A program made the translations under genes and the position numbers. The notes under the pieces are model-generated. The model had not been told where the DNA came from. It worked only from the letters and a program-made list of their open reading frames with translations, and did not search any database. This document shows positions 1 through 46,401 of a DNA stretch of 64,000 nucleotides, piece by piece (position 1 is the first letter of the stretch; every line of letters begins with the position of its first letter). Origin of the DNA: Antedon mediterranea (taxonomy: Eukaryota > Animalia > Echinodermata); contig NC_092674.1 in NCBI RefSeq assembly GCF_964355755.1, positions 28,272,001-28,336,000 on the forward strand. The letters run 5' to 3'.

Positions 1-1169
1 TCATCCCCCCCTCCCTCATCAAACAGTTACGGCGTCCCCACCCAATCGGAGCAAAACCTCATCAAGAACACACCACCAATCAAATACGACCCATAATGAA
101 ATTACAAATGAACTATTATTAAGTGCAAAGAACAATTGTCACTCATGTAATACATATGTTATTGGTATAATGTTAGCAAATATTTTAATGGTTATACCAA
201 GTACAATAATAGTTTATGAGTGAGATACCTTTAAACCAGAGACGCGAGGAGATCGTGCTCGGAATGTGCCCAGATGTTTCAACTAAAATCGGCACTTGAA
301 AAGGCGGACTTGAAAAGCCTAATTAAAAACCTGCGGTGATTTTTATTTTTAAATTAAATGGTACTATAATTTATGACTTCTGAGAAGAAACTCTATAAAC
401 TGTATGTCAACCGTTGTATTGACCAATAAAACAGTAAAGAAATGGAAATGGAAATGCTATCAAATATTGGCTCACATGTGCGAAATAAACGTTCATAAAT
501 ATTTTAATATTTTTTTATAAATAGTATTATAATCGTATACACATAAATAATGCATATTTAAAAAGATAGAATCTCGACCAAACCAAAACAGAATAAAGTA
601 TATATTATTCAACGATAAACATAAATATTTCAGATTTAAATTTAAAAAGATAACTTCTTTTCATTTTTCTTTAAAATGAAATACATATTATTCAACGACA
701 GATGGTTAAATAAATCATCATTAATTATGATGAATACGATGAATACGATTATTACGGATTAGACAATCTAAGATATAATCGCACTATTGTCCAACAGTAA
801 ACAAGCATTTTTAACGTCATTAACCATGACCATTTGCAAAAAAACGCGAAGCGGACGGATAGATACAAACTGTACGTGGGACAAGCTACGCGGTTTCCGT
901 TTTAGCGTCACCGCTCGTCTGTGTAAACAATTCAGATTTAACAAACAAGACAGAGAAGCGTTTTATTTCAGAAAAGCTCAATTTTATTGACATATTTCAG
1001 AAAATAAAAAATTGCACGATAAACATGACAAAATACTAAATATATAATATTAAACAGAAAACCAAAGCACTATTTTAATCAAAATGTATCTTCATTTCAT
1101 TGGCTTAATACTGAATAATTTGTAGCAATTACTTCACATCCATGTTTTATTATTATGATAAGTAAGGTT

Positions 1170-1305
1170 AAAGGTTAAACGGGACTGCTGACTCTTGTAG
1201 TTACAGTAATCGTATTACTTTAGCAGTCCCTGACCAATTTCATCTTTGTACATTGTATATATGTTTTGTTGGTCGAATAAATAAATGAAATGAAATTAAA
1301 TGAAA
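1170..1305 (+). mobile_element. 3' tail of a LINE/SINE downstream of the gene A stop codon
   Basis: Stem GGGACTGCT..AGCAGTCCC, then gtcgaataaataaatgaaatgaaa; the layout matches the tail at 43180-43312. Confidence 0.45.
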
Positions 1306-1470
1306 CGACAAATACTTAGAGGCAATTACTTTTTTTTACAAACTGCCATTTTAGCTCCATATCATTTAATAGGGTGATACCATTATAAAAGTAGTGAGAT
1401 TATGTTATCTAATATTACTCAGTAACAACAAATGAAGATTAACTTATAATAATACTGTGTAAAATTTCAT

Positions 1471-2081
1471 TTAAGGCCAATCACATACTTTTAAGTCGTC
1501 TTTCCATACAGTTCCTGGTCCACATATGAAATGATACGCATTGCCGTACGAACACATATACCACATGTTAGGGTCAGCAGGATCCGCAAACATACCATCT
1601 CCACGTCCCGTACACGAAAACTCTACTATAGTATTAACGGTCTCTTCAACAGACATCTGTCGATTCTCACAATCCACCAAATGCTCATGGTCGCAGACAG
1701 TTTTCTGGGCATGCCATTTGGTACCCTTCGGGCATGTGCGTACCCGTCGGTGGCCCTGCACATGACACAAAACAAACTTGGCACAATCAAAGGGATGTGG
1801 AAAATATCCGAAACGCTTTCCTTCGCAAAATGTATCGATGACACGTTTTTCCTCTGCCTTTTTCTCTTCATCTTCATTTACTGGTACGCTTATGATGTCA
1901 CATTTTGCTATGCTTGGCCAATCACAGCGCCGTATATTCTCGTTCCAATGAAGGCCATTGGGGCATCTTCGTTTGTGGTAGCCGTAATATTTACATTGGA
2001 TAAATTGTGAGCAATGCAACGGGTGGCCGAACATAAAACCGTAACGTCGGTTTTTACACAGTTTCAGTAAGTCAACATCAG
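1471..2081 (-). CDS. Terminal exon of gene A: three chitin-binding type-2 (peritrophin-A/CBM14) domains
   Basis: Three Cys-patterned repeats: [54 protein letters not shown] and [28 protein letters not shown]. Acceptor cttccccag|CT is phase 1. An in-frame TAA lies just upstream and there is no signal peptide, so this is an internal or terminal exon, not a separate gene. Confidence 0.88.
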
Positions 2082-5000
2082 CTGGGGAAGTAAAATATTA
2101 TTTGTTAGGGTAAAGTGCGTGTGCAGGGAAGGTTCGTGGATTAAATTTTTTAGTACAATTAATTCACAAAACAAGATAACAAGAAACGAAACAACAAAGT
2201 GCTGTGAAGACTGTGTTCAAACATAAAGTAGACCTTGTAAGTCTCCCAATAATGGCGGATGGAGCTTCCAGGTATTTTAAGCGACCCCTCATCTTCCGCT
2301 ATAGGTACGATTTCTCATGATTGGATATACAAAAGAAAAGATTTTGATAGCGCATACATTTCCCTTTTAAACCAACTAAGACCTTTTTGGTCAATTAGCT
2401 ACTACACCACTCCACGCATTATACGGCCTCCAAATACGTTGGGTCCTCTGGTACAGTATTGGAGGTTTTTTTAACTGCACAAACAGAAACAGCCATTGCA
2501 TAGCATCCATGCACATTACTAAACCAATTAGCATAAATTTAATAATTTCAAAGTTGTTTATTGACGTTCTTTCCCTAAGGTCTCTTAGGATATCTATCAA
2601 GTGATAGTTGCAGAATCTATCACATTAACTATGCCAGGTTCGTTAAGCATGCATAGCTGCGTCAATTACTGTTCGATACTACATAAAGTAATTATAAAAC
2701 TCCCAGCGACAATAGGATAGGACAGGAGGGTATTATAATTAGAAAATTACAGTACTAGAAAAGTTCAAATATTGGAATTAATAGAACGGAAGTGCTACAA
2801 CAATTATTAATGATGAAATGTACTATTAAAGAGGACGGCGAGTGGCCAAGCGGTTAAGACAGTGGAACCGTAATACCTTGCCATAATAACATCGGCAAGG
2901 GGTTCAAGCCCCTCTCACTCCTGGTGGTAGAACAAGTTTTTTCGGATAAGGACTATAAACCGTAGGTCCAGTGAACACATCTCGCTCATGTGCACTTAAA
3001 AGAACCTAGTAGGGGGTTACTCCGGTGTACAAGTATACACACAGCCACTGTCACTCATCCACTTGATTGTCAGCATATGCTGTTTACGGTCACCCTCTAT
3101 AAATAAGGTGTAATAAAATAAATAAGTAAAGTGCTTACCGATAACTTTGACGTTGAAATAGCATTGGTTCCGATTCCCATACTTATCGATGGCGGTACAA
3201 TTCACGACAGAGTCTCCGATAATGAAGCGTGAGGGTGACGTTGCGTTGCAAAATGATTGTACTTCTTCGTTAGAGTTATCCGACACATTTGGCGATTCCC
3301 AAGAAACTAATCCACGATTTGCGTTTTGCTCGGCGTCGACCGTGATATCATTTGGGCATTCAATAACAGGAGGTTCTTCATCTAAAAGTACAAACAACGT
3401 TTAATATGACATTTATATATTATTTTTTATCAATTTTAGAATTTTATATTTTTGCCCTATTGAAATTCCCATTCTTAAAATTGTTATGCCTTGCAAGATT
3501 TTATTCTTTAAGTTGAATTTTTTAATTTACATACGTCACATTCAACAGGGGGAATTTCACTAATTAAAGAATGGATAAACTATAATTTATTTTTATAAAC
3601 TCAAGTCTCATTTGAGGCTTAGAGAGTGGAGTAGTATAGTTACAACCAGGATTGAACCATGGACCTTGGGATTGGAAGGCAAGCATGTTAACCACCAAGC
3701 TACAGCTCTATTACATACATTTCTTTAATCAACATCTGAATACATGTAGGATTTTAATGAACTTACCAAAAACTTCAATATCAAACTTGCACACAGCGTA
3801 ATTTCCAGATCTGTCAATCGCTTCACACATGGTTTCGGTTCGACCAATCGTAAACATGTCCAAGGGACCAGGAGTGCAATCAACCGTTGGCTCGACGCCT
3901 GAATTGTCATGCACTCCTTCCAGGCTGAATTTCGGAATAGCCCACGGAACACCACGTCTTGTTGGTATCCTCATTGGAGGTGGACAGTTTATGATTGGCG
4001 GCTCAACATCTATGTAAAGAAAATAGTTTTTAATACAACTTTAGAAAAACTATTTGATATCAACTCTACTTGACATGAAAAGGCTAACATAAAGCTCTGT
4101 CTACACTATCAAACTAGTTTGACAACAAAAGTGTGATGGGCCAAATATGGTAGTGATATGACATCATCATGTCCATATATGGGCACATCACAATTCTTTG
4201 TCACATAAAGTTTGATAGTGTAGACAGAGCTTTAGAGAGGTTTCGATTTTTCTGGGAACTAGTTACATTATGTTAATTTATTGTGTACCTGCAGGGACAT
4301 TGGGACACAGTTTGATGGATTCTAGGGCCAAACAATGAACAATGACACAATGTGTGTAGATCATACACCAAGGTTGTCACAAATTAAAAACTCACTATTA
4401 TCTCTCAGCTAGGTAAAAAGAAAAATTAAGTAATAATGTATATACTATATCCTTGCAATAAGACTATATTTTTTTTACTTTATGTTTACATTTACATATA
4501 TTTTGTAATTGCAATAATTTTGTTTAATGATGACTATTACTTTACTTGTCTTTTGAATGTATATTGTCCCTTACCATGCAATTCAGCAGATTTGCTGCCA
4601 ATTGGTTTGTTTTTAATAAAGAATAAAGAAAAAGGTCAAATAGGGTCATTACCTTTTACAGTGATGACAAAATAGCATGGTTGTACATTGCCAGAAGAGT
4701 CGGTAGCCAAACACGTAACATTAGTGTTACCAATCGGTAACCGTGGAGGCTCATCGCAGGAAACAGTCACAGGTATACGGGAATTATCAGTCGCTTTTGA
4801 GACATTGTGAATAGCATTGGCGTAACTCAAAGATGGAAGTGTATTGAGTTCATAACTGGCTGGACACATTATTGTAGGCTTTTCATTGTCTGTGTAAGAT
4901 AATTAATTGGATGTGAAATCATAGTCTAAAATAGTTCCGACAAAAAAAAAGTAATGTGGCAAAATATGGTAGTAATATGACATCATCGTCTCCATAAATG

Positions 5001-8000
5001 GGCACATCACATTTTTCTTGTCACATAAAGTTTGATAGTGTAGATATTACTGTACTGTATGTACACAAAGCTCTGTTTACACTATCAAAGTAGTTTGACA
5101 AAAAAAAAGAGTAATCTGTCCAAATATGGTAGTGATATGACATCATCGTCTCCATATATGGGCACATCACATTTTTGTTGTCACATAAAGTTTGATAGTG
5201 TAGATATTACTATACTGTATGTACACAAAGCTCTGTTTACACTATCAAAGTAGTTTGACAAAAAAAAAAGAGTAATCTGTCCAAATATGGTAGTGATATG
5301 ACATCATCGTCTCCATATATGGGCAAATTTTGTTTGTCACATAAAGTTTGATAGTGTAGATATTACTGTACTGTATGTACACAAAGCTCTGTTTACACTA
5401 TCAAAGTAGTTTGACAAAAAAAAGAGTAATCTGTCCAAATATGGTAGTGATATGACATCATCGTCTCCATATATGGGCACATCACATTTTTTTGTCACAT
5501 AAAGTTTGATAGTGTAGATATTACTGTACTGTATGTACGCAAAGCTCTGTTTACACTATCAAAGTAGTTTGACACAAAAAAAGAGTAATCTGTCCAAATA
5601 TGGTAGTGATATGACATCATCGTCTCAATATATGGGCAAATTTTGTTTGTCAAATAAAGTTTGATAGTGTAGATATTACTGTACTGTATGTACGCAAAGC
5701 TCTGTTTACACTATCAAAGTAGTTTGACACAAAAAAAAGAGTAATCTGTCTAAATATGGTAGTGATATGACATCATCGTCTCCATATATGGGCACATCAC
5801 ATTTTTTCTTGTCACATAAAGTTTGATAGTGTAGATATTACTGTACTGTATGTACACAAAGCTCTGTTTACACTATCAAAGTAGTTTGACAAAAAAAAAA
5901 AGAGTAATCTGTCCAAATATGGTAGTGATATGACATCATCGTCTCCATATATGGGCAAATTTTGTTTGTCACATAAAGTTTGATAGTGTAGACATATCAA
6001 ACAAAATACAGTCAACTATCCCTAAAATCCTAAACAATATATAGACTGACAAACCTATTACTGCATGTACATAAAGAATATCAATAAAAATTAACTTTTA
6101 GACTAACCAACAACTTTGACGTCAAAGTTGCATTTCTCGGTGTTTCCGCTTGGGTCTTCTGCAAGACAGTAAACAGTCGTTGAACCAATTTGAAATTGTT
6201 GACCACTAATATGGTCACAAGCGACCTTCACAGTCTCTTGTGAATTGTCATACGTAGAGAGGGCGTTCCATCTAGCGATACCATAATCCATTCTGGGTTC
6301 AGTGAACATGATGACCTCTGCTGGACAAGTGATGGATGGACGTTGTTTGTCTGGATAAAGAAAATAGAAATTTTTATTCTAGCCATATTAAACTTTCAAC
6401 ATTTATTTTTGAAATTTATAGATTATATTATCTTGTACACTAAATCCCATGTTTTGGGATCATTCTATCCAAGACACATCCCTATTAAGAGGACATTTGT
6501 GAAAGCAAAAAAATAAGAGATAATATGTTGTAACACTATGGCCAAACCATAAGAAGACACTCCTATAGATTAGATTAACTATTAGGCTTTTTCTTTTGTT
6601 ATTTTATATATATGTTTTTATATTTATAAATCCAAAGGCAAATTACTGAAAAAGTGACAATGCTGTGGGTATCAGTGGCTGGATCTCAATGGAGATACAA
6701 AATAAAAGCGAAAAGCTAAATCAAAACGAGAAGTAAAACAGCCAGAAAAGTTAGCAGAGCTTTCGGGCAACACTAGCCCTTCATCAGTGCAGTGTTTTTA
6801 TATTTATATTTATATTTTCATCCTGTAATTGTTGTATACACTGTGGGATGTAAAAAAATAATTAAAAAATATAAATAAAATATATGTTTAATCAAAGGAA
6901 TACAGCTGAGGGGAACTTTTTTGGTACCAAAAGTGTCCCTCTAGGGATCTACTTTGTTTCCACTATACCTTTAACATCTACATTGAATGCGCACTCCGCC
7001 TCGTTCTGTGCCGCATCAACAGCTTTACAGATTACGATACTCAATCCTATATCAAATGAACTGCCTTGTTGCTTGTTGCAACTAACTACTGGTACAAGCT
7101 CAGAGTTATCTGTAGCTGTTGGTAATTGCCATGTTGTGGTAACATATTGCTCATCAGGGAATGTGTTTAATTCTATGTCTGATGGACACTGGATATCTGG
7201 AGCCTGAGTGTCTGCAAGAAATAATTAAGTTAAATGCAAGGTGCTTTAAAAGTGACAGATTCTAAAATATATTAATTGTCGTATTCGATATTGGGACTTT
7301 TTACCATTATTTAATGGAGTATTTTGAGATTATTATTAACGAAAAAGCTTCCATTGTCAACGTTTTCTATTCAAATGATGTTCTGTTGAGAACAATATTT
7401 GCCAATTGAATACAAAAAGTACTCAACGAATCTTTATGTTGACAACGAAAGTTCCCATTTGAATACAACAAATGCAATCAATATAATGCTCTGTATGTAT
7501 GCATTGTACTCCAACCAATAATAGTTTATCCATACTGTAATTGCCGAGTTTTTTGTCGCTGTTGGATGTTTTTCTTTGTAATTTCTTTTTGTTTTTTCTC
7601 TCAGCGCTTTGGGACAATCTTTTGATTGTATAAGCGCTATATAAATCGAACAATATTACATTACATGAAGTAAAAACATTTTTTTTTTAATAAATAAATA
7701 AATAACAAAAAATTATAATTTCACTTTCATTTTATTCTGTTTAGGTAAATATATTTATTTTCTAAACCCAATTTTTTATATTAAATAAACTCACCAATAA
7801 TGGTTACATTAAAGGAACATGTTCCGGTATTACCGCTGGAGTCGGTGGCCTGACAGTTGACCTTTAAACTACCAATTGATATGGAACGTCCACTAGTGTG
7901 ATCACATGACGCTGTTAGCACTTCAAATGAGTTGTCAGCCACTAATGGCGCTTGCCATGTGGCTAAACCGTCGGCCTCGTCCTGATTGGTTGGGAACGTT

Positions 8001-11000
8001 TGGGATGGTGGGCAGTACAATATTGGGTTTCCAATATCTGTAATAAAAACAGGTTTGAAATACTGTATTCTAAATAAGAAATAATAAAGATTTTGGTAAA
8101 TTATTTAAAAATTACTAAATTATAAGACAAATATAACTATAACAAATAGAACAAAAAAAAGAGTAAAAAATATATCAAAAAGCGATTGCTGATGAGAATT
8201 CGAAACTATAGAAAGGTTCACAAACTGCTACTCATTTCAAGATAAAAGAGTTCTATGAGATTTGAACCAAAACCTTGTGATTGTAAAGCTGCAATTTCGA
8301 ATTTTTTTACCTGCGACATAAACTGTAAACGAACATGAGGCTGCGTTGCCATATCCATCAGTAGCAATGCAATCGACCTTTGACATCTGGAGCGGCAGAT
8401 CAGAACCGGACGGTGGGTAGCATGCTGTTTTAACAGTACCAGAGTTATCATTGGCCTGTGGATTTTGCCATGTTACCTGTAGTGTTGAGTCAACGGCTGC
8501 TTTTGAGGTGATATTAGCAGGACAGGTAATTGTAGGTGGTACAGTGTCTAATACAAAAATATATCATTTATTTATTGGAGGAAAACTGCAGTTGCAATAT
8601 TAATATCATTTGTTTATAGTTGCTTTTTCCCAAAATTAACCAATGAAGTGTTTTTTTTTTGTTTTGCTCCAGAAAAATTAACCAATAATTATCTCCTTCA
8701 AATCAGATATTATCGGATAAATGTGATAATTTTTACCTTTAATTTGATGGATTGGTTAATTATTGGTTAATTTTTTGTTATTTTGTAATAATAAAGGTTT
8801 AACAATGAAGAAAAATCAAGAGTATAAACAACAGAATAGAATAGATAGATATTAATAATGATAATTCTGATGTAACAAATAACAAATCATGTATAAATAA
8901 AACAAGGATTTTAATGCTTCAAAAATACTCAATTTTATTGTACTTATTCCAAATAATTATTGTACTGTACTTCAGACAACACTAAAATATTTTAAATAAT
9001 TGAGCCTACCTGCCACACAACATGTGCAACATCCGTCAGCACAGGTAGATTCTATAGTTCCCTGGTAAAAAGTTATAATTTAGTTAGTTAAAAACTGAAA
9101 TTGCTAAGATAAAATTTAAGTTTGTACTTTTACGTTTAGTTTAAAGATGTATTGTCCCCCTGAAAATAATTTTTTTTAAAGTTTTTTTGTTGAATATGCC
9201 ATTTTAATGTTATATAATAGTTATTGACTTCGACCAAGAATTGGATCTGAAAAAAATGTATTTACATTAAAAAAACTGGAATTTATTAAAGCTACAAAAT
9301 AACCTATTCAAAGTCTGATTTAATTAATCTTTATTTTTCATGTTTTTGGGGGACAATACATCTTTAATGGAATCTGAGAACATATGAAGAATGACTGGGG
9401 GTATATATTGTAAATTGGTACACTAGTATTTGTATATTGATGTAAATGGTGTATGTTAATAGAGAGGTTTCACAACGCTACGAATACAATAATGAAAACG
9501 GATATGTCATACACACATATTTGATTTTGTAATCCAGTAACAATCTGTTTCGCATGGCAATGAAATATTGAGGGCACTGTCCAAAACAGGACATTAAAAA
9601 CTGCTACTCATCAAAATTGACCTGGCATTTTTAAATTACTTTTGGTAAATTACTTTCAATAAATCTATAATTATATTATAATCATGAATCATTCTTGATT
9701 CAATGCAAAATGTGCAAAATAGATAAAAAAAACTATACTCGTTTTGTAAAATGTAGTTACGAATATGACTGGTGATATTCGTCAACACGAATACGCTTTA
9801 CGAATATGAAATGGGGATCAGCTCAAAGCTTTCACAAATATGTGACGTATCCATTTTTGTTATCGTATTCATAGTGTTGCCAAACCTCCCTAATGTAGTT
9901 TGATAAACTTAATACTTACAACAGGACAACTGATTGGGGGGCATTGATATGGGGTACACGTAATGATACCCCCTTGGCAGGTACATTCCTCACAGCCTAC
10001 TCGCCAACTTTGATCGTTCTAACAAAATAATAATCTATATAAATATTTTTCATAATGATTTTTAAAATATTTGTCTTTTAATGCTTATTATTGCATTTTA
10101 AATTATCAATTTTCATAAGGTCTCAAATTGTTCTGATATGTGAAATAAACTATGAATTTATTTATTGGGTGAACAATTTAGAAAATGTTCATATATTTCT
10201 TACCCTGTAAATTATTCCATTTTCTTCACAAAATGATGTATCTAAAAACAAAAAAAGTTAAATGTGAAAGTATATAAAAGTTGAAAATATATATGTTCAC
10301 AATATTAAAAATGAAAATCAGAAACATTTCGTATAGCAGCATACTTATTATTATATGGAAGACAAGTAAGTATTACCTTTGCATGTGAGTCCCTGAAGGA
10401 AATAACCAGGTGGACACTGACATGTAAATGAACCCATGGTATTTGTACAGGTGTGGCTGCAACCGCCATTATTAGTATCGCATTCATTAATATCTGAAAA
10501 ATAACAAAAAATTAATCATTATAACAAAATCTACTGCAAAAGGTTGTTATTGTTAATGAATGCCTTTCAAATTATGATAGTGATGATAAGTTATAAATAT
10601 ATATAAAAAAACAAGTACAAAAAAGTTAATTAATTTGCCATAACTTATTTTAAAATGTGATACATACCAAACTGACATGTCTTGCCTGCGAAGCCAGATG
10701 TGCAGTAACATTTCGCTACAATGCCAGATATGAGACAGCTAGTCCCTTGCTGACAAGTGATGTCACTACATCCAGTAGTGGGCACCACACAGGTTCCTAA
10801 AAAATAAAAATATTTTATAAAGTTATTATAAGATTTTGCAACCTTGAAAGTACAGTGGTCTTACCACCACCAGCTTAAAAGATTATATTGTCCCCCTGAA
10901 AATGTTTCATTCATTTTAATGTCACATAATAGTTATTCACTTTACCAAAAATAGGATTGAAAAAAAAAATATTTACTTGAGGAAGCTGTAATTTAAAGCA

Positions 11001-14000
11001 AAAATAGTCAAATTGACTGGAAGTAAATGAGATTTTGGTTGAATTCAATTTGTCTTTTTATAAGTGAAAAACTTTTTTTTTACTCCAAAACTGCAAAATG
11101 ACCTATTCAAAATCTTTTTTCGATTAACCTTCATTTTTTTTTCTTCATGTTTTGGGGGACAATACATCTTAAGTTTTGCTCATGAAGTGTTTGCAATGAC
11201 ATCAAAGATACAAATGAGCTCAGTTTAAAAGTTTTAACTTTCAAAGTATAAATAAATAATATTATCAAACCTGCAGGTCGTGTTGTTGGCGCAACTGACT
11301 GGACATTGCCTGTCAAGCCTTCTTGTACTGCTGCCCAAGCTAAGACATTTCCTGAGAACTTGCAGTCGGTGTATACGGAGTGGATCTCATTAGCAGTCAG
11401 AGCATAATCCCATATATTCAGCTGAAAAACATAAGCACATCATTTATTGTACAAGTGTTGTTGCTAACAAACATTAAGCTCATTCAAGCTTTGGATATCT
11501 ACCTGGGTAAGTTGGTGTCACAGACCAATTATTGGTAAAGTTGGGGGTAAATAATTAAGTCCACCTTAAGGCCTTATCTACACTATCTTTATGTGTCAAA
11601 AAAATGTGATGTGCCCATATATGAGCATGATGATGTCATATTACTACCATATTTAAGGATAGCTCTACCATAATTTTGGGACCACTCTTATTTATACTTT
11701 ATGTAAATGATCTAACAAAGCATGTAAATAGTGTACAGATTAGTATGTATGCAGATGATACAGCTCTTTACGTTGCATCTTCTGATATAAATGAAGTACT
11801 TGCAAAAATTAATGAAGATTTTAAAAAAATCAAATCATGGCTAGCAAGTAACAAGCTTAGTCTAAATGTAAATGTTTATATTAGCAAACATTGATCTAAA
11901 TTTAAACATAGACAATGTTCGGCTACAAAGAGTAAAAAGCTGTAAACATCTAGGTGTTGTTATTGATGAATATTTACTGTGGGATAAACAAATAGATAAT
12001 GTTAAAAGTAAAGTATTGCCAGGCTTGTACTACTTAAAAAAATCTTCAAATCTCGTCCCAAAACATGTATCTTGCTTAATGTATAATAGTATTATCTCTC
12101 CACAGTTTAACTAATATAATAATATAATATTGTGTGGGGCAAATCAAATAAAAAAAAATACTAATAAACTACAAATGCTACAAAACAGAGCAGCCAAAAT
12201 TATTACAAAAACAAGGAAATACGACTCAAGTACACAAGCCCTGCAAAACTTAAACTGGATAAATCTTAATACTCAACTACATAATAATGAAGCCAAAATG
12301 TTATATAAAATATTCCATAATCAAGCACCGTCATATCTAAACGAACTATTTACACCCAAACTAGACACATACAATACAAGATCAAAGGATGTATTAAAAT
12401 TGGATAAACCCAAAACAGAATATAAAAAAAAAAGTTTTTCATATCATGGTGCTAGTTTATGGAATACTCTAAAAAAACCAATGCAAAATGCCACAAATTT
12501 AAATACTTAAAAAAAATTATTGGTGTGATTTATTATTTATTTTGTACTCTTAGCATAAATGTAATTAAGGTTTCTGTTCATATATTTTTGTTCTCTAATT
12601 TGTTATTTTTAAAATTTGTTATTTTAAAATTTGTAATGTATTACTGTTAGTTGATCACGGCCTTGTAGAAGAACACCTTTATGGTGACACAAGCTTTTCC
12701 GTGTTAAAATAAAGTATTTATTATTATTATTATATATATGGGCACATCAAGTTTGATAGTGTATACAAGGCTAAAGTGGTTTGCATTAAAAACTTTGATA
12801 GCAGAAGAGAAATGTAAATGCAATGGTCCATTGGAAACTGAGAATCCTACAGACAATGTTACACTAGAGTCAAGAAAAAAAGAAAAAAAAAAAGAAAAAA
12901 GATGAAGACTAAACACAAGTTGTTCTTACCTGGTTTAGAGTACCAATAAATGCCTCATTGCGGACAAATGATCCTCCATAGCTATCCTGTTCCTGGCCTA
13001 CAACAAAGATTCCTCCTCCTTTGATGACATGGCCGGATTGAAGGCCAGTTCCCTGTTTTTGTAGTACATCATCCATGTAAATAAACCATGATCCGGATAG
13101 ACTTTCCCAGGTCAAAGCAATATGATGCCAAGCTGAGTTACTGTGAATATTAACATCAGTGTTTAGGGGAGGAGTAGATAAAATTAAGTTGCAAAGGGGC
13201 TCCATCTTGGTCCATTTGGTATCCTCTACAACTAGCTGTACTATGTAATTGCATTGGTTGGGATAAGGGTGTTGTGTTACAATTACATATGATTTTAGTG
13301 TGTTGCACATCTAAATAGTATATAAGTTAGTTTGAACTTAAATAATATACAAGACATTGTCCATTTTTAAGTTTGAACTTAAATACAATAGAACCTCTAT
13401 TAAGAAAACACTTTCTGGTCTAAAAGTGTCCCCTTACTTTTAGACCAGAAAGTGTTTTCTTAATAGAGGTGTCCCTGAATAGGGATTGGCCATAGTGTTA
13501 AAACATATATTGCCCCTCGTTTGTTAGAAAAGTGTGCTTTTACCTTTTGGGGTGTCCCCTTAATAGAGGTGTAACCTTAATGAAGTGTCCAGTTAAAGTG
13601 GTGTCCCCTTAATAGGGGTCTCTCCTTAATGGGTTGTCCCCTTAATGGGGGTCTATCTTTAATGGGGTGTCCCCTTAATAGGGGTGTCCCCTAAATAAAG
13701 CGTTCCAAAGTAGGTAATTAAGAGCAAGAAACCATACCTATTTGCTTGAACATATGTAAAAGCTGCCTCGCCATTGACATAGAAACTGAAACTATTGTAA
13801 TCTTGCAGCGTGAGTGCGTTGTCCACCACAACGCCCATGTCGTCCCTCGTTGAATACGATATCGGACAACCGTAGTTGTCTTTGTCTGCGGTTTTCATCC
13901 AAAATGTGATTGTAAACTCGTACAAGTCTGGGATGCCTCCTAACCGGCAATAGTTACTGACACTCGCTGACAGGAAATTTAAATCATAATTTGATGTCAG

Positions 14001-17000
14001 TTCTGAAATGAAGAAAAAACAAAACATTGTAAATATAACAAGATTAGAAAATCTTAAGGCTGTGCAAACTTAGTTTTATTTATTTACTTCTTTTTTATAC
14101 AAGCCCGTAACCACAAGGGGTTTGAAGGTTTCAATGAAACTTTTTTTCTTAAAGTGTCCTTTTTAAACAAGAGAACAGCAGAAGTAAATCAGTAACTGAC
14201 TTACCTGTCTCACAGAATGTTCCAGAAAATCCAGAAACACAACGGCAGAAAAATGCATTAGCTCTGTCCTCACAAACACCACCATTTTGACAGACTACAT
14301 TCTGGGTGGTGCATTCATCGATATTGACATCACATACAGCGCCAAGGAAACCCGGAGGACATGTACAAGTGAAAGCACCATTCGTGTTTAAGCACGTTCC
14401 ATTATTCTGACAGGGGGAGTCGTCGCACTCATTTTTATCTTGCTCGCAGCGTGGTCCTGTGTACCCTGGTGTACAGTAGCACGAGAAGCTCTATTAAAAA
14501 AAGATTTAATAACAGCAATTTAAAAACTGTCATAATATTTAATTAAATAATTTAGGCATTCTTAAGCCCTTTCTACACTATCAAACTTTATGGGACAAAA
14601 AAATTGTAGATGGAGACAACGATGTCATATCACTACCATATTTGGGTACATCAAAATTGTTTGTGAAACTAGTTTACTAGTAGACAGAGCTTTACATTGT
14701 TAAGGGAAGAGGGACATCAATGTTGTGATAGGTATGCAAATGATATATTAGAGGCACTACTTTAGCAATAAAAATTGGTTATTTATCATCTGTGCATCAT
14801 AGTAAAATAAAATACTATATTTAATGTACTAATATACATTAGTTCCTCCAGTAAGTAACTTACGTTAACTTCATCAATACAAGTAGCTCCATTAGTACAA
14901 TTATGTGTAATGCAATCATTGATATTAACAGCACAGTTTGTTCCTGTAAAACCGGATGCACATTGGCACGTGAAGGAGTTGACAGCATCGATACAGCGTC
15001 CACCATTGAGACATGCACCTATGAAAACAAGAGGTTATTGACAATGGTCTACTGAATGGTTTCCATCATACACATATTCATATGCTACAAATCTAAGGTT
15101 TTTTCATTTCATTTCAATCTTTATTTCGTTAAAAAGTAAAATATGAGTAAAATAAACAGACAATTAAAAATTACTAATGAAAATGGAACTAAAAAAACTT
15201 TAAAATTTGTAATTTATTATTTTATTTATTTATTATTTCTTTATACTGGGTAGAATCTTCAGTCAAAGACTGTTCTCCCAAAGGGCCTAGTTCTGGTTCA
15301 GTGGCTATGTGTGACAGCGGCTGTGTGCGTACTAGTACACCGGGCTAACCCCCTAATTGTCTCGAAAGATGTACTATGTTCTTTAAAGTGCACCTGAGCT
15401 AGATGTGTACACTAGACCTACAGTTTATAGTCCTTATCCGAGAAAATTCATTCTACCACTAGAACCATGAAGAAATATTTATATAAAAGGTAAACTTAAT
15501 GGGGATTTTTTTTAAATCTTTGAAAACTATATAATGTCCTTGATTCCATACCTGGTCCACAATCATTGATGTTTATCTGACAATTAATCCCTACGAATCC
15601 TACCGCACACACGCAGTAGTATGTGTTTGTTCCATCTAGACAACTGCCACCATTCATGCAAGGATTACTGAGACACTCATTGACGTTGAGGTCGCAAGTA
15701 GAACCATAAATTCCGGGAGAGCACGAACACTGGAATCCATCAACCGTGTCGGAACAAGTAGCGTTGTTTTTACACGGAGATAACACCAAACAAATGTCAA
15801 TATCTGAAATTATTAATATAAAATATCGTAAAAATTACCTAACAAAAACCTTTTAAATACAACAGCACCTTTATTAAAGAGATAGCTTTGAATTGTCTCC
15901 TTAGTAGGGGTGTCCCTTAAGTATGGTTTTATCCATAGTGTTAAAATGTACATTTTCCTTTATTCATTTCAGAAGTAAGCGTCCCCTTAATAGGGGTGTC
16001 CCTGAATAGGGATATCACAAAGAAGAGATCTACGTATAAAAAAAAAAGTTTCAGTAACCTGAAAAAGCATGATGGTGTCGTATAATTTAACTATTCTACG
16101 GCCAAAACTCACCTGCGCATTCCGAAGATGATGCCGCACCTTTAGCAGAGGTTGTAAATCCTTGTTGACAAGAATCGCATGACCTCTGACCTTCGTTGGA
16201 TTGGTATTCACCAAGAGGGCAGAGTTCGCACGGTTCATAACCAGTTCGAGAGTAGTGTCCAGCTTGACAAGCAACTAAAATTAGAATAAATATTGTTTAC
16301 TCAATGATGGCATTATGGAAACTCGTCCTGTAAATGAGAGGTTGCTGGTTTAAATCTTAAATCAAGAAAGTCTTAAAACTTAAAACTTGGGCTGGTATCA
16401 ATCTTTCTGCTTACATCAATATAATTATGAAAAGTACAGTAAATAGTTCTCTAAATTTTAAGGAATGGACTTCCCCATCTAGGATTTAAGGAACAAATCC
16501 GGCAAAACAAGTTGCTTAGGCTAATTTTAAAAATGACATTAGCAAGATAAATTAACTTACAAAAGGTTAAGATGATTTTTTTTTCTGATAATCTGACCCC
16601 TGACATTTTGGACCAACAGAAAGTCAGGTTTAGGAGAGTTAATTGCAACATGTAATAGGGAGGTTTAGCAATCTTACGAATACGATAACGAAAACGTCAC
16701 GCACACGTATTCGTTTTTCGTTAGTCAGCAAAAATTTGTTTCACATGGCAACAAAATATTGAGGGCGCCGTCCAAAATATGACTGCGGTAAGTTTGAGCG
16801 AAGCGCATGTACGTGTTGCTTGGCTGCCTAGGCCTAGCGTAACATCAAAGCGAGTGAGGACTTTAAAAACTGCTATTTATCAAAATTGACCTGGCATTTT
16901 AGTAAATTACTTTAGTAAATTACTTTCAATAAAAGTATAATTATATTATAATCATGAATCATTCCTGATTCAAATGCAAAATGTGCAAAATAGATCAAAA

Positions 17001-20000
17001 ACTAAACTCGCTTTGTAGTTACGAATATGACTGGTGATATTCGTCAACACGAATACGCTTTACGAATATGAAATAGGGATCAGCTTAAAAGTTTCACAAA
17101 TGTGTGACTTATCCGTTTTCGTTATCGTATTCGTAAGGTTGCGAAACCTCCCTATTAACTGGAAGAAAATTGCTGAAATGCCTAACAAGTTTGAATGATA
17201 GTTGCTCACCTGTGCAGTCTAATGCAGACGTAGTTCCAACATTCCACGTTGTCAAACCATCTGGACATCCTGCACACATCGTAAATCTTGGATTTGGTTG
17301 GAAAAAGCCTTTCATGCAGGCAACACAGGGTTTTAACCCACTTGAAGACGACGTTCCTGGTTCACAAGGTTCTGGTAATCAACAACAGAAAAAAATAAAA
17401 AAATAAAATAGAGAAATGCGATTTTGATCGAGAAGTAAATGTAAAGTTTCAATGGCAATAGCTTTGATATCAATCAAGAAAACATCTTTTAGGTATTAGG
17501 AATTTAGGTAGAAGATTTAAAAAATGAGTGATTGCTGTTATTAAATAATAACACAATTGTTTTTTTAATGGAAATACAAATTTATGTTAAAAATAATTGA
17601 AACAATTATTATAAAAAAATTTAATTATAAATATTTTTTTTTTCTTTTCCAAAATCAATAAAAAAAAATTCAAAAAAATAAAGAGACTAATAAATTTAGT
17701 TACAATTAGAAACAAAGTTTTTTTTAAGTCGTAATATTGACAATACTGTTTCTCTTACCTCTGCATTCAGACAATTGTTTAGTTTTAGTTGTCAGTGTAT
17801 ATCTATTGTTTGGGCACACTTTGCATGTAGTCTGTGCTTCTATATCTTGATACATGTCAATTGGACAATCTTCGCAAATTTCAGATCCAACATCAAAAAA
17901 TGTTCCAACGGGACAGCTTACTGTAAAACAAATAGTCAAAAAGTAAAGAATTATATATCATACAAATATAAATAATATTTATTTTAGGCACATGTGGCCA
18001 ACGATTTAAGTCAGGTCTCGAACAGGCATGGTCCAACCACCCTCTAAAATTTGCGCCGTATTCGAGATTTGATGTCATTTTCAAGAGGGGCTTATAGGCA
18101 TGCCTAGCCTCGACTCCTTATCCAGAAAATGCTGAGCTCCGGAAATAAGTAAGTAAACAAGGATTACCAATAGTAAATTCATTTCTATCAGATACTGTAT
18201 GGGCTATTTGTGAACCAGTTCACTGGGGCAACTCCCTGCTCGTCTCTCTTAAAGTGCACATAATTGTGTACACTGGACCTACGGTTTATAGTCCTTATCC
18301 GAGAAGACTTGTTCCACCACCAGAACTAGGAGCGAGACGGCCAAAAACCCATGCCAATATTGTTGGATCCTCCTGGTGGTCCCTTTTATCTTTAAAAATA
18401 TGTTTTACTCCTTGTTTGTTTATGAGGTGAATAAAGAGAAATTAACAGCGCCTCTGCCTTAAACGCTCAGCTAAACTAGTTCGACATACAAAGTGTGATG
18501 TACGTGCCCAAATATGGTAGTGATATGACAACATTGTGTCCATATATGGGCAAATTTTGTTGTCACATGGGTAATGGTTGGTTATAAATAAATCAATTAA
18601 CACTAACCACAACTCAGATTCCTTAGAACCTGTCCAACATCGCAATCAATTGTAATCTCTGACATCACAATATCCTGACTGGTTTCTGGAGCCAGAATGT
18701 CACCATCCAGTGGGATTGATAGGTTACCTGTTGTCACTAACTTTTGTATTGTGTTCACATATTCTTGTAGGGCACCGGTGACATCTATTTCAGTTTCATC
18801 CGGCATGTTGCCCGACATCTTTTGTTGCTGTGGACAAAATAGTTCATCATTTACATACAGTACTGACTACATATCATATACCAAGCCCACACATTTTACA
18901 CGGGTGTGAAAAACGCGTGACTCGCGTGTAATTAGGTACTAACAATACTGTCCATATTCACTCATGCATTACTGCATTGAGTAATTCAACTGCAGCGAAC
19001 TGTATTTATAATTTGTTGATGTTTTGTTCATATATATTATTATCATCAAACAGACAATAACTGGAATTACAGTACAGGATAACAGCATTTTATTTAACAA
19101 AATATAGGCCTATTTGAAATAAAAAATCGATTTATTTATCATAGTGCAATCATGGAGGTAAAAACCTCCATGAATCATGATGCAATCTGTGATTGAAAAT
19201 ACTAGGCCTAGTTAGTAGGCCTACTACCGGGATCGGAGTACAGTACTACTATTCTAGGCTTTCAGGGTTTGTTTATATATATTTTTAAGTCATATTTATT
19301 AAGTATTTGAGAAAACTCATTAAAAAAAACAAGGTAGAAAAGACCCAACAATATCTTTCAAAACACGATCGTTGCTGGTGGCCGAATGACGTACTTTCTG
19401 TACGCACCACGTTGTAGAGTTCATCCATTGAGTACACACAGTAATTGCTAGGCCAGATAATAACATAAAGGTTTTACCATTCCCCGTCGGGGAGGAAAAC
19501 ATTTATATAGTATTACAACGCCAGTATTGACATGCATGTATTTAGCGCGGTAACTAATGTACACCCCTGTTACGGACTGGACCATTAATCGCTCCACGAA
19601 ACCACGTTGGAGCGATTCTCCTCCGCACACAGCCAGAGCGAGAGAGAAGCGAGGTCGAATAAATACAAGTTTTTACCATTTCCCGTCCAGGGGAAATCAG
19701 TTCTCTTATAATTACAGCCCCGATACCGTGCGCATATGTTTACGTTGATATTATTTAATTGCACACCTCATTTTGGACTGTACCATTTTCGGAACCTTGT
19801 TTTGTTTTCATTATAAACATGGGCTGATGTCAGACAAATATCTGCTTTAAACGTCAATTTAGCAACTTATTAAGTCGTTTCATAAGCAGAGAATGTATAA
19901 AGCAAGTATACAATGCAGACATGTTAGATAGAAATATACTAAAAGACATGTAATAAACGTGTTAGAAGAACGTAATAATTGTACTTTCTACACCGAGCGG

Positions 20001-23000
20001 CGGAAAACCCATTCACAGTCACAGTTATTTGAGCGAATACTGTACTTGGCCTAAAACACTAGCGCTGTATTTTAATTTAAATATTTGGCTTACGGTTACG
20101 AAAATACAGGGAAACATCATTTTATAATTTTACTATTATTAGGCTATTTATTGACCTATTAAAGATCGCTAAATATGTTTTTTTTTGTGGGGGGCTTAGG
20201 TACAGTAGCTCTCTATTCTAGCCTCCCTGTTGTACACTTCTCACTGTACGCCTCACATTATATAAAATAATACGACGTGAACTCTAAACAAAACCCCGAT
20301 GAAAAACAATTTACATGAATTCTATAAACCTTCTTATTTATTGTTTGCCTAAACAATAGAGAAAAAATAAACTTTGTTACATACAGTAACGGGCGGGTTC
20401 AGATTACCTAAATATGATGGTAGAGGCCTAAACAATAGAAACAAAACAAACTGATACCCACGTGTGTGTTGTCACGGGCGTCGTACCGGGAGTTCCATAT
20501 TTTACCAGTAAAAAGCTACAAAGTGATGACGTCATGGTCCACACGGCAAATACAGGCACGCGGCAATTACACATATTTTACACGCGCGACAAACGCGGGT
20601 TATGGTACATGATTTGTAGTCAGTACTGTAAATAGTATTAAACGTTTTAAACCAATTCACCACTAAAGTGTATGATGGGCTACCCTTAAAGTGAAATCTT
20701 AAATTGACTTAAGTGAAAAAAAATAATGCATCCCGGCAAAGTTATAGCTACAATTACCTTTATACCGTATGTAAACATCAACAACAAACTAAATTACGAT
20801 AAAAAAAAAACAACATTTCAAGTTTTACCTGGGCTGCACTGCCACTGACCGTTGCCGTGGCATTGACGGTAATCACGTACTGGACAACTTGACGCCTTCT
20901 TCGTTTTGATGACCCGACAGCGCCAGCACTGTCAGCTCCACAGTACACATTCACGTTTTCCACTTTACACGTGTCGGGATCGTTACAGAGACCAGGAAAG
21001 ATTGCATTCAAATCTTGAAACTGACTGATCAAGTTATTTTGGATTTCTAGTTTTCCTTCTGGTGATGCGCAATGGTCAGCATAGTACTGGACACTCAGAT
21101 CAACATTAGCATTTGATGGAACCATTACTATTTAAAAAATTAATAAAAGTAAATTAGCCTGCTTGAAAAAATGAGAAATATTCATTGTAGAGTGGGGTTT
21201 TTTTTTTTTACTTTTCCTGTGATTTGACAAAAATAATATAAAAATAATAATTTAAAATACAGAAATACATTAGGTCTATTTAGAAGCATTCAATTTACCA
21301 CTGCTTAGGATCTAGTTAATGTAAATTAATTGTGTGCATATGAGGGTATTTGGCTATGTGGGGATTCTAGGCCACATCATAACTGACGACGCAATATACG
21401 TCGCAAAGCAAAAGCTCCTTATTTTAATGGTAGTAATCTTTTATATATTATATTTATATAATATTTTTTTTTAATTTATAATATATTTCATACATAATTT
21501 AACTTTACAAACATTATTAAGAATAAATTAAATAAAAAATAAAATTAAATAAATTAAACCTACCAGAACAATCTGGCCATGGAATTACAAACTCCATTGT
21601 GGAATCTCTTGTAAATGATGGAAACAAAACCCATGCTGGCGTAGCACCAGTGGTAGAGCAGTAGTACAATTCCTCTGGCGTGCGTGAAAAGTCAAAATCC
21701 TTCTGACAGGAAGCGGTGCAGAATTGACCTCCAAGCCAAGTCTCACAAGCGAGAGCTCCATTCAGAGGAGAGGGATGGAATGGGCATGAATATTCTACAA
21801 AAAATGGTCATTTAATAACTATTAACAGTTCATAAATATAATTACTGTAATTTTTTTAATTATACTTTTAATGAAATATATTTGTACTATTTTTCATATT
21901 TTTATATTGGAAAAAATAAATTAAAATTTTGAATCTGTAACAGTATGAATAGACGAATACGAATAGAACTTTATTGCAATCAAACGAAAGATTGAAGTTT
22001 AACAAAAGCGTTTCACTCAGAAAAATAAAATGCAATATAAAAATATAAAAGACATTTAGAAAGGTAGAACATACAATCAAAATATTAAAACCAAATTACA
22101 ATTAAATATCACTTATTATAAAAACAATAAATATATATTCAAAATGTTAAAAACAAGTTTAACTGAAAACATCAGAATATTGATATAGGCCAGCATTATA
22201 AAAATGTAAAAGTTTAAAAAATTTTTAAAAATTTAAAAAATGTTAAAAACTTCACAAATTTTCAAAAATATTTACACACAATGGTACGGAAGGTCGCGAA
22301 AACATAACACTAAATGTTTACCATTTTTGGAATAGTCCGTGATTAATAATGAAACGTTTTTGAACGGTTAGTTTTAACTCTGGGATACAGAACTCACGGA
22401 GTCTCTCTAAGATTATAAGCAGTAGAAGGAGCCTCCGGTAACAAATGATTCAATCTGTGACTGGGGTCTTTGATTTTAACGAAAAAATCCTTGCATAGTC
22501 GAACACGGCGGTCTTCTAAGGTAGAAAAACCAAGGAAGCTGCGGGCATCGGAATAAGTAGCATGCAGAAAAATACATTTAAAGGCCCTTCTCTGAATTTG
22601 TTCAAGTTGTTGACTCTGTTGCTTCGTAATATTTGATCCTCAAACTGGGGCCGCATATTCTAATATTGGTCTAATGATACTAGTATAAAATTGGACAAGT
22701 GCGGGGGCATCCAGGCCTGCCCTCCGCACCTGTTTGAGAAAGTACATTCTAGAATTACATTTACTAATCATTTTGTCAATATGAGGTTGCCATGACAAAT
22801 TATGAGAAATAATTACACCAAGGAGTTTAAATTCGTCAACACGTTCCAGATTACAATCTCCAACATGAAGTGGCTCAAAAGCAGTCTTTGACCATTTACA
22901 ACTAATTCTCATCTCTTTCGTTTTCTTAATATTAAGGGACATATTGTTATCCTTAGCCCACTGGACAGTTTCGTCAAGAGTGGTTTGGAGTACAGTTGCC

Positions 23001-45700: not shown

Positions 45701-46401
45701 TCTTGGCGTATCGTTTTTCACCAACAGCACATTTTGATAACAATATCATTCAAACTTGATCAAACAAGAGAATATCATTAGGCCTATTTACTTTCAACAT
45801 TTTATATCCTTTTTTTATTTGATTGAATCTTTTTTTTTCTATTTTGTGGGTTTATCCCACATTTATTCTGTCCATTTATACATAAATTACATAGAATTAT
45901 AGTCTTAATCCTGAATTATATTATTTAATTTTATACTAACCTTGGAGCACCAGGTCTGCCATTTGCCAGAATATTATCAGCTCGATTGAGAGCTCCTAAA
46001 GTGTATCTTCCACCTCCAGTGTAAGGCAGATCATCTTCAAGCTGTCCAAGAAGCGTACACTTATTTTTACCAGTAGGTTCAGTGATATGATCTATCCTCG
46101 TATAAATCTGCGTACCCGACGAATACGACACGATCGCGACACGAGCTGTATCCGCTGACACGGTGAATATTGTTGAAATCTGACGAACAAAGTCCACCTC
46201 TAAAGGCCATCTAGAAGCTCCAATACTATCAGAACTATCCAGAAGGAATACAATTTCACTTGGCGCGTTCTGGAATTCTTCGAGATTACCCAGCAGTCTC
46301 AACGCGTTTTCTTCCACTTGATCTTGGCATCGACCAAATGTTATAACAATTGCAAAACAGACGGCCTGGCAGAGGCGGTATTTAGAGCCTAAAGACAGCA
46401 T
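39795..46401 (-). CDS. Gene B: short exon-shuffled paralog of gene A, 10 exons, ~792 aa (SP-vWA*-Cys-rich/GCC-[Sushi-like+X]-HYR-HYR-[Sushi-like+X])
   Basis: Exons 45941-46401, 45144-45355, 44842-45024, 44357-44524, 43888-44106, 41421-41618, 40974-41222, 40572-40814, 40259-40489 and 39795-40009 (TAA). All have GT/AG and compatible phases, sum to 2379 nt, and show no internal stop. AATAAA lies on the minus strand at about 39671-39676. Confidence 0.8.
42340..43312 (+). mobile_element. Degenerate LINE (CR1/L2-like) 3' fragment in an intron of gene B
   Basis: LQADLDRL, FKYLGVTFNSKLTWDDH, LEYA and YEERLNLL occur in shifting frames, followed by a 3' stem-loop and a (GAAAT)n tail. Confidence 0.75.
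43440..43762 (-). mobile_element. tRNA-derived SINE, same family as 2831-3050
   Basis: Reverse complement has TGGCCGAGCGGTTAAGGC, GGTTCGAGGCC and the GATAAGGACTATAAACCGTAGGTCC core. Confidence 0.72.

What the first reader, a model, noticed from the sequence alone, without database searches (positions are those of the whole stretch)
1471..11421. SVEP1-like protein with its Sushi tail replaced by vWC, 7 HYR and 3 chitin-binding domains
Seen: after the pentraxin, phase-compatible exons encode EGF, EGF_CA, vWC, seven HYR domains and a terminal exon with three peritrophin-A/CBM14 domains. No transmembrane segment is evident. Known: vertebrate SVEP1/polydom continues after the pentraxin with about 30 Sushi modules and has no chitin-binding domain. 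Inference: this is a lineage-specific chimera in which a HYR rod presents chitin-binding heads linked to vWA and pentraxin modules. It could act as a secreted pattern-recognition or opsonin protein, or as a cross-linker between chitin and matrix or adhesive.
Basis: partly seen in the sequence, partly recalled or inferred. Interest (0 to 1): 0.85.

Follow-up and report, generated by a model that had tools for sequence, protein, structure and literature searches.

The report
Feather-star protein with swappable capture heads
This is a real feather-star gene for a 2456-residue protein, predicted to be secreted, that ends in seven rod-like repeats and three chitin-binding-type domains; it likely arose from an invertebrate cousin of SVEP1, and may swap those heads for scavenger-receptor domains by alternative splicing, likely to catch foreign particles.

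Summary
34 exons on the minus strand (36129-1471, all 33 introns GT-AG) give a stop-free 2456-aa protein: vWA ... pentraxin, EGF, EGF_CA, vWC, 7 HYR, 3 CBM14, no membrane span. It is identical to RefSeq XP_071951453.1 (feather star Antedon), and a 67%-identical ortholog with the same junction exists in Anneissia.

The interpretation needs correcting. The gene groups not with Sushi-tailed SVEP1 but with an invertebrate paralog group (sea star, sea urchin, acorn worm) ending EGF-EGF_CA-vWC-VWD-C8-TIL. So vWC is inherited, and what was likely replaced is VWD-C8-TIL.

The 3139-2081 junction was not displayed directly. Chitin binding is untested: the closest solved relatives (EHEP, Der p 23) do not bind chitin, though domain 1 keeps known contact residues.

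Best reading: a secreted tether that captures chitinous or microbial particles. New variant of a known kind; moderate interest.

The parts
1471..36129 (-). Whole gene, 34 coding exons, ATG 36129 to TAA 1471, 2456 aa; identical to XP_071951453.1
35669..36129 (-). Exon 1: signal-peptide-like N-terminus (judged by eye, no predictor run) and first part of vWA; metal-binding motif DxSxS..T..D intact (the D lies in exon 2, 34805-34594)
13738..34805 (-). Exons 2-19: rest of vWA, EGF-like, ephrin-receptor-like, 3 Sushi, 2 HYR, a Sushi-like and an unassigned region, 3 ephrin-receptor-like, 6 EGF, start of pentraxin
20892..20903 (-). Four arginines (aa 846-849), predicted furin-type cleavage site, kept in Anneissia
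   Evidence: cleavage inferred
11271..13140 (-). Exons 20-21 (13140-12930, 11421-11271): rest of the pentraxin domain
10377..10796 (-). Exons 22-23 (10796-10668, 10493-10377): EGF and calcium-binding EGF; inherited from the VWD-tailed parent
9010..10241 (-). Exons 24-26 (10241-10204, 10018-9920, 9061-9010): vWC domain; inherited; similarity to VWD-tailed relatives ends at its last cysteines
8548..9009 (-). Phase-1 intron at the inferred shuffling breakpoint between vWC and the new tail
   Evidence: inference
3139..8547 (-). Exons 27-33: seven HYR domains, one per phase-1/phase-1 exon (8547-8311, 8037-7795, 7211-6969, 6350-6108, 4889-4653, 4009-3767, 3381-3139), 29-40% identical to each other
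   Evidence: exons 30-33 spliced in one RNA contig
3133..3139 (-). Splice donor shared by two annotated isoforms: to 2081 (CBM14 x3) or to exons outside the window (HYR8 + SRCR x3)
   Evidence: RNA contig ends exactly at 3139
1900..2058 (-). CBM14 domain 1 (aa 2262-2314), six cysteines, basic; keeps P2294, L2297, D2307, W2308
1669..1827 (-). CBM14 domain 2 (aa 2339-2391), six cysteines; His (Tyr in Anneissia) at the terminal aromatic site
1474..1614 (-). CBM14 domain 3 (aa 2410-2456), four cysteines, closest solved match Der p 23
1267..1470 (-). Probable 3' untranslated region of the CBM14 isoform; covered by contigs of the RNA run; candidate polyadenylation signals at 1370 and 1151

Best explanation
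The gene encodes a 2456-aa mosaic protein, predicted to be secreted, that likely works as a tether: its front end would sit in the animal's own mucus or matrix while a rod of seven HYR domains would hold out three CBM14 heads to catch chitin-bearing particles. Shown: the exons, the frame, the domains, the ortholog in a second feather star, and splicing of four HYR exons. Inferred origin: a SVEP1 paralog ending vWC-VWD-C8-TIL lost VWD-C8-TIL and gained HYR and CBM14 exons by shuffling at phase-1 introns, before Antedon and Anneissia split. Inferred regulation: the donor at 3139 chooses between two last-exon sets, CBM14 x3 or HYR8 + SRCR x3, so one scaffold would be made with chitin-type or scavenger-receptor heads. 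Inferred action: after secretion and possible furin cleavage at aa 846-849, vWA (metal site intact), Sushi, EGF and pentraxin modules bind host proteins or cells, and the heads bind plankton cuticle, fungi or bacteria at a mucosal surface or in the coelom, trapping them for clearance or ingestion, much as VCBP does in tunicates.
For: Stop-free 34-exon frame, identical to a public model. Ortholog at 67% identity over 2448 aligned residues, with HYR7 joined to CBM14 at the same place; the CBM14 domains are 66, 81 and 68% identical, as conserved as the rest (54-82%). One contig of the probable RNA run is spliced across exons 30-33, a second covers the CBM14 exon, and the non-repetitive part of the intron between them has depth 0-7.5. 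Trees and the shared cassette tie it to the VWD-tailed group. The second isoform shares aa 1-2253 exactly and carries SRCR domains. CBM14-1 keeps residues aligned to Avr4 Pro87, Leu90, Asp102, Tyr103, of which Pro87, Leu90 and Tyr103 correspond to the chitotriosidase chitin-binding residues (PMC6128652, passages). VCBP-C tethers bacteria to chitin and acts as an opsonin (PMC6109156 and PMC7947342, passages).
Against: No binding, tissue or localisation data exist here. The best solved match of the triple head is EHEP and that of domain 3 is Der p 23; neither binds chitin (bioRxiv 10.1101/2023.06.04.543649, passage). Avr4 Trp100, essential there, has no match in domain 1. Domain 3 of Anneissia lacks the terminal Asp-Trp. 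CBM14 domains can also bind hyaluronan and N-glycans (PMC6109156, passage), so the ligand may be the animal's own. The junction 3139-2081 was not among the 15 joints displayed (1125 more hidden). The SRCR isoform rests on one RefSeq model in one species, with its exons outside the window. Forcing the feather-star pair together with the Sushi-side group was not rejected (p-AU 0.07), and the trees have no outgroup.
Confidence: 0.45

Rival explanations
1. Structural cross-linker of the animal's own matrix: the heads bind self glycans (N-glycans, hyaluronan-like polymers, or endogenous chitin if feather stars make any) and the protein bridges them to collagen or cells in ligament, skeleton, hyaline layer or larval adhesive.
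For: SVEP1 is a matrix protein (PMC10129328, passages). A gene annotated SVEP1 marks a mesenchymal cell cluster in regenerating sea cucumber gut (PMC11244903, one passage; which paralog is not known). HYR-rich echinoderm proteins named hyalin fill the hit list. CBM14 binds more than chitin. The vWA metal site is intact.
Against: The alternative heads are SRCR, a typical recognition module (established knowledge). A survey of animal chitin synthases lists only chordates among deuterostomes and does not mention echinoderms in its main text (PMC3942024, passages); that is silence, not a tested absence.
Confidence: 0.3
2. The triple peritrophin-A head does not bind chitin but sequesters polyphenols or other small aromatic compounds, as EHEP does in the sea hare gut.
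For: EHEP, a triple peritrophin-A protein, is the best solved-structure match (E 1.5e-8) and lacks chitin binding.
Against: The match is weak and may reflect only the shared count of three domains. Domain 1 keeps the chitotriosidase-type contact residues in Antedon, and the terminal Asp-Trp in both species. A 2250-aa scaffold is not needed for a scavenger.
Confidence: 0.12
3. The SRCR isoform is an annotation read-through into a neighbouring HYR-SRCR gene, so the CBM14 end is the only real one and there is no switch. (This concerns the switch only and is compatible with either function above.)
For: One model in one species; the Anneissia cluster has a single member with the CBM14 end. The contig break at 3139 could come from unspliced RNA.
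Against: The RNA contig stops at the exact shared donor, and nearby intron depth is low. HYR8 scores best with the tail HYRs h3 and h7 (116 each) rather than with the front HYRs (93, 60), as a continuation of the array would.
Confidence: 0.3
4. The CBM14 exon belongs to a separate small gene and is not joined to the HYR array.
For: The joint itself was not displayed. The CBM14 contig is deeper (434) than the HYR contig (178).
Against: Identical junction in public models of two species. The CBM14 contig has 26 letters that run on beyond 2081 without matching the intron. The bin over exon 33 holds 21,299 base-depths more than the HYR contig explains, against 4-657 in four other exon bins, as junction pieces would give. 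None of 12 ATG-started frames of 18 aa or more in the intron has a fitting donor under my filter.
Confidence: 0.04

Closest known systems
VWD-tailed SVEP1-like proteins of sea star (XP_038057936.1), sea urchin (XP_011674027.2), acorn worm (XP_006816609.2) and two further RefSeq proteins (XP_070554253.1, XP_064481555.1); automatically named, no description found in the papers searched
   Same: Same front cassette and same EGF-EGF_CA-vWC after the pentraxin (40-46% identity over about 135 aa in four, 109 aa in the fifth); same side of the tree.
   Different: They continue with VWD (and C8/TIL in four); this protein continues with 7 HYR and CBM14 x3, or HYR8 and SRCR x3.
SVEP1/polydom (Sushi-tailed; e.g. 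XP_014062513.2)
   Same: vWA, ephrin-receptor-like, Sushi, 2 HYR, EGF, pentraxin front half; secreted, no membrane span; basic cleavage-type site in the same region.
   Different: No Sushi run after the pentraxin (2 Pfam Sushi stretches in all against 31-33); separate clade; lacks the C-terminal half that was used to show Tie1 binding (PMC10129328).
VCBP-C and Ci-GFM1 of the tunicate gut
   Same: Secreted; CBM14 joined to other binding or matrix modules; VCBP-C tethers microbes to chitin. This is what it most likely works like.
   Different: No Ig-V domains, no mucin D assemblies; three CBM14 on a long HYR stalk; no homology outside CBM14.
EHEP (25 kDa polyphenol-binding protein, PDB 8IN3)
   Same: Three tandem peritrophin-A domains; best solved match.
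   Different: A free 229-aa protein that does not bind chitin.
Insect SRCR-LDLa-CBM14-trypsin proteins (P0001, Musca; the family name Tequila/Sp22D is recalled)
   Same: SRCR and CBM14 used in one gene (Pfam list).
   Different: Both are in one chain with a protease; unrelated scaffold.

Membership tests
SVEP1/polydom orthologs | Front cassette vWA, ephrin-receptor-like, Sushi x3, HYR x2, ephrin-receptor-like x3, EGF x6, pentraxin | tested here: met
SVEP1/polydom orthologs | C-terminal half made mainly of Sushi repeats | tested here: not met
   No Sushi after the pentraxin in either isoform
SVEP1/polydom orthologs | Groups with Sushi-tailed SVEP1 in a tree | tested here: not met
   On the other side of a 100/100 split; a constraint joining it to the Sushi side as a whole gave p-AU 0.07; no outgroup
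SVEP1/polydom orthologs | Binds integrin alpha9beta1, Tie1, angiopoietins | not testable with these tools
   Ligands from PMC10129328 passages
VWD-tailed SVEP1 paralog group (defined here) | EGF-EGF_CA-vWC directly after the pentraxin | tested here: met
VWD-tailed SVEP1 paralog group (defined here) | vWA and pentraxin group with these proteins | tested here: met
   100/100, 97/95, 100/100
VWD-tailed SVEP1 paralog group (defined here) | VWD-C8-TIL tail | tested here: not met
   No VWD, C8 or TIL hit in P0004, P0156, P0170; a derived member by descent, not by architecture
CBM14 / peritrophin-A domain | Pfam PF01607 above cut-off, cysteine pattern | tested here: met
   120 bits against 22.1, 3 stretches; 6, 6 and 4 cysteines
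CBM14 / peritrophin-A domain | Residues known to contact chitin | tested here: inconclusive
   Domain 1 keeps the chitotriosidase set, lacks Avr4 Trp100; domains 2 and 3 partly
CBM14 / peritrophin-A domain | Binds chitin | not testable with these tools
   EHEP and Der p 23 show that family membership does not imply it
VCBP | Two Ig-V domains plus one C-terminal CBM14 | tested here: not met
   No Ig family among 17 Pfam hits

The most novel reading that the evidence does not exclude
Feather stars have built a single secreted scaffold whose recognition head is switched by alternative last exons: chitin-binding CBM14 x3 for plankton cuticle and fungi, or SRCR x3 for bacteria. It would be a splice-tuned capture adhesin in the feeding or gut mucus of a suspension feeder, derived from an undescribed VWD-tailed SVEP1 paralog.
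Probability: 0.25. Interest if true: 0.68.

Novelty: new variant of a known kind. Interest (0 to 1): 0.42.

Why it matters
Domain shuffling in invertebrate extracellular proteins is common, and this gene model is already in RefSeq, so the architecture alone is of moderate interest. Three things add value. First, it exposes a second SVEP1-like lineage with a vWC-VWD-C8-TIL tail that is filed under the SVEP1 name; reports of 'SVEP1' in invertebrate proteomes and single-cell data may refer to it. Second, the breakpoint falls on one phase-1 intron, a clean case of exon shuffling that can be dated among crinoids. Third, if both last-exon sets are real, it is a testable example of ligand class chosen by splicing, and a candidate molecule for how crinoid mucus holds or screens particles.

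Tried and rejected
No whole genome is held for this window, so the SRCR exons downstream and chitin synthase genes could not be looked up. The run search listed no holder on record as RNA; run X1 was judged RNA from its spliced contig. Reads were laid only on 1000-6800: exons upstream of 6350 have no direct splice evidence here, although the HYR contig has 420 further letters beyond that exon. The joint table was swamped by repeats. A single-sequence fold of the CBM14 exon failed (mean pLDDT 36.8), so no fold search was run. A longer-protein search with the CBM14 exon found 2 unrelated insect proteins among 110 candidates and could not reach proteins over 2000 aa. The Atlas gave generic vWA clusters and, for HYR6-HYR7-CBM14, only HYR clusters at 0.81-0.82 with no CBM14 shown; it holds only large clusters, so this is no evidence of rarity. 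The SRCR tail was not examined in the Atlas. The first concatenated tree timed out and was rebuilt with a simpler model. Earlier findings of the scan: none in 3 look-ups. Paper searches with no relevant description of this protein: 0 papers; 1; 0; 1; subscription papers are not covered and no supplements were read, so proteome tables may list these accessions. Rejected: a transmembrane form; a pseudogene (open frame, conserved, expressed); vWC as a crinoid gain.
Full report
1. The observation. I read the minus strand from 48000 to 1 and set exon boundaries by hand. 34 exons from ATG 36129 to TAA 1471 give 7371 nt and 2456 aa with no internal stop; 33 of 33 introns are GT-AG and 26 of 33 are phase 1. 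Pfam finds HYR in each of the seven exons from 8547 to 3139 and three CBM_14 stretches in the exon 2081-1471. On the whole protein it finds vWA, four ephrin-receptor-like repeats, Sushi, nine HYR, EGF, pentraxin, EGF_CA at 1589-1620 and a weak vWC at 1632-1688 (22.9 bits, cut-off 27.6). The highest 19-residue hydropathy is 1.24.

2. The gene is real and already modelled. A search with exon 1 returned a 2456-aa protein, P0004, identical to my model at every residue and listed as XP_071951453.1. The neighbouring paralog on a contig of the same length is named from Antedon. A search with residues 1540-2456 found P0170, XP_033116115.1 from Anneissia: 2465 aa, 67% identical over 2448 aligned residues, with nine HYR, three CBM14 and the same HYR7-CBM14 join. 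Identity by region runs from 54 to 82%, with the CBM14 domains at 66, 81 and 68%, so the tail is kept about as well as the front.

3. Transcript evidence. Four of the five listed runs were laid on 1000-6800. In run X1, guessed to be RNA, one 1388-nt contig covers 6108-6352, 4653-4889, 3767-4009 and 3139-3381 in consecutive pieces, so it is spliced at my boundaries, and it ends at 3139 exactly. A second contig covers 1435-2081 and has 26 more letters beyond 2081 that do not lie on the intron. The joint 3139-2081 is not among the 15 shown; 1125 were hidden. Indirectly, the bin over exon 33 carries 21,299 base-depths more than the first contig explains, against 4 to 657 in four other exon bins, and the 26 letters would account for 11,276 of them. 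In the three DNA runs that bin equals the depth of one contig. I take the junction as very likely but not shown.

4. A second ending. The cluster of P0004 holds a second member, P0156 (XP_071951452.1, 2807 aa). It shares residues 1-2253, which end at the donor 3139, and then continues with an eighth HYR and SRCR domains. Pfam counts four SRCR stretches; by inspection there are three domains, the third split by a basic, proline-rich insert. These exons are not in the window and presumably lie beyond its left end. A fork in the transcript graph at this donor would explain why the RNA contig stops there, but unspliced RNA could too. The isoform is one model in one species, and the Anneissia cluster has only the CBM14 form. 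I put it at about two in three that the switch is real.

5. Where it comes from. From the 150 hits listed (of 969) I picked 14 long or single-vWA proteins and scanned them with P0004 and the paralog, then six cluster mates. Two kinds of tail follow the pentraxin. Five proteins carry Sushi repeats there (4, 14, 31, 32 and 33 Sushi stretches in all). Five loci carry VWD after EGF_CA and vWC, four of them with C8 and/or TIL: Patiria, Strongylocentrotus, Saccoglossus and two RefSeq proteins whose organism the calls did not show. The others ended early. The segment 1546-1690 of our protein aligns end to end with the VWD-tailed proteins at 40-46% identity (5 of 5; one from residue 35 on), and only as generic EGF with the other six. 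Similarity stops at the last cysteines of vWC, at the phase-1 intron 9009-8548. Trees of vWA (16 rows), pentraxin (13 rows) and both (13 rows) split Sushi-tailed from VWD-tailed plus feather-star proteins at 100/100, 97/95 and 100/100. Against this: there is no outgroup, the position inside the VWD side is weak (83/90 with the sea urchin protein), and a constraint holding the feather-star pair with the six Sushi-side rows was not rejected (p-AU 0.07). That constraint only moves the pair to the base of the VWD side. The simplest history is loss of VWD-C8-TIL and gain of HYR and CBM14 exons in crinoids. The tail HYRs are 29-40% identical to each other, so the array is old.

6. How rare. CBM14 appears in 2 of the 120 hits listed (of 961) for the C-terminal region, the two feather-star proteins; the list is ranked by score and dominated by HYR-rich proteins, so 841 were not seen. 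A profile from the six feather-star CBM14 domains hit 4 of 288 stored proteins: those two and two insect proteins of other build. Rarity is suggested, not proven.

7. Do the heads bind chitin? Matches to solved structures include chitotriosidase, tachycitin and Avr4, but the best is EHEP and the best for domain 3 is Der p 23, and both lack chitin binding (bioRxiv 10.1101/2023.06.04.543649, passages). Domain 1 keeps Pro2294, Leu2297, Asp2307 and Trp2308, aligned to Avr4 Pro87, Leu90, Asp102 and Tyr103; the paper equates three of these with the chitin-binding Pro451, Leu454 and Trp465 of chitotriosidase (PMC6128652, passages). Avr4 Trp100 has no match. Domain 2 has His (Tyr in Anneissia) at the last aromatic site. 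Domain 3 has four cysteines and has lost Asp-Trp in Anneissia. CBM14 can also bind hyaluronan and N-glycans (PMC6109156, passage). I put chitin binding by at least one head at about 0.65.

8. Mechanism. Shown: architecture, conservation, partial splicing, an intact vWA metal-site motif and a four-arginine site at 846-849 in both species. Inferred: secretion; cleavage; an extended HYR stalk (Ig-like fold, recalled); host-facing binding by the front modules; capture of chitinous or microbial particles by the heads. The working model is VCBP-C, which tethers bacteria to chitin and opsonises them (PMC6109156, PMC7947342, passages). That feather stars feed on plankton caught in mucus, and that SRCR domains often bind bacteria, is my own knowledge and comes from no call. 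Whether crinoids make chitin is open: PMC3942024 (passages) names only chordates among deuterostomes and does not mention echinoderms. The main rival is a cross-linker of self matrix (0.3); a polyphenol binder is less likely (0.12).

9. What is known. SVEP1 is a 3571-aa matrix protein whose C-terminal half is mostly Sushi repeats and binds Tie1 (PMC10129328, passages). This protein fails that membership test and should not be called an SVEP1 ortholog. No paper in ten full-text searches described it or the VWD-tailed group (one search was about CBM14 residues). I also saw passages only of PMC6368272 (SVEP1-like names in shell proteomes), PMC10216261, PMC8878817, PMC10448888 and PMC11244903; no full texts and no supplements.

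10. Verdict. A genuine, conserved, crinoid-restricted (as far as sampled) mosaic protein; a new variant of a known kind, already annotated but apparently undescribed. The possible switch of heads is the most interesting part. Interest 0.42.

Noticed in passing
window 39795-46401 (-): Tandem paralog (P0153, XP_071951454.1, 792 aa), 80-96% identical in DNA to exons 1-4 and 8-11 but in shuffled order (exon 10-like, 11-like, 8, 9, 10, 11-like), ending early. Its ten exons are open, but the vWA metal-site Thr and Asp are lost. It shows the locus still shuffles exons.
   Followed up: partly
outside the window, beyond position 1 (P0156 aa 2254-2807): Alternative tail HYR8 + SRCR x3; the third SRCR is split by a long lysine/arginine/proline-rich insert of unknown role.
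   Followed up: partly
window 4928-5995: Tandem repeat of about 157-bp units in intron 30, with related single copies at 4084-4236, 14560-14694, 34846-35003 and 38208-38331; a very high-copy family by depth.
   Followed up: no
window 27089-32609: Tandem repeat of about 1.5-kb units (75-88% identity) filling intron 4.
   Followed up: no
window 22394-23293 (-), 11634-12510 (+), about 42129-42962: Broken reading frames that look like LINE reverse-transcriptase remnants, judged by eye from the translations; not scanned against a library.
   Followed up: no
window 53673-53987 (+) and 62708-62941 (-): Exons with cyclic-nucleotide-binding domains from two oppositely oriented, similar-looking genes.
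   Followed up: no
window about 1435-1440: Two contigs of run X1 meet here with about 65 unlaid letters each, suggesting an insertion of roughly 100 nt in the 3' untranslated region of that individual.
   Followed up: no
P0046/P0158 and P0121: VWD-tailed relatives also vary in module number (4 or 6 HYR in Patiria isoforms; 10 ephrin-receptor-like repeats and 6 HYR in XP_070554253.1), so the whole group is architecturally labile.
   Followed up: no
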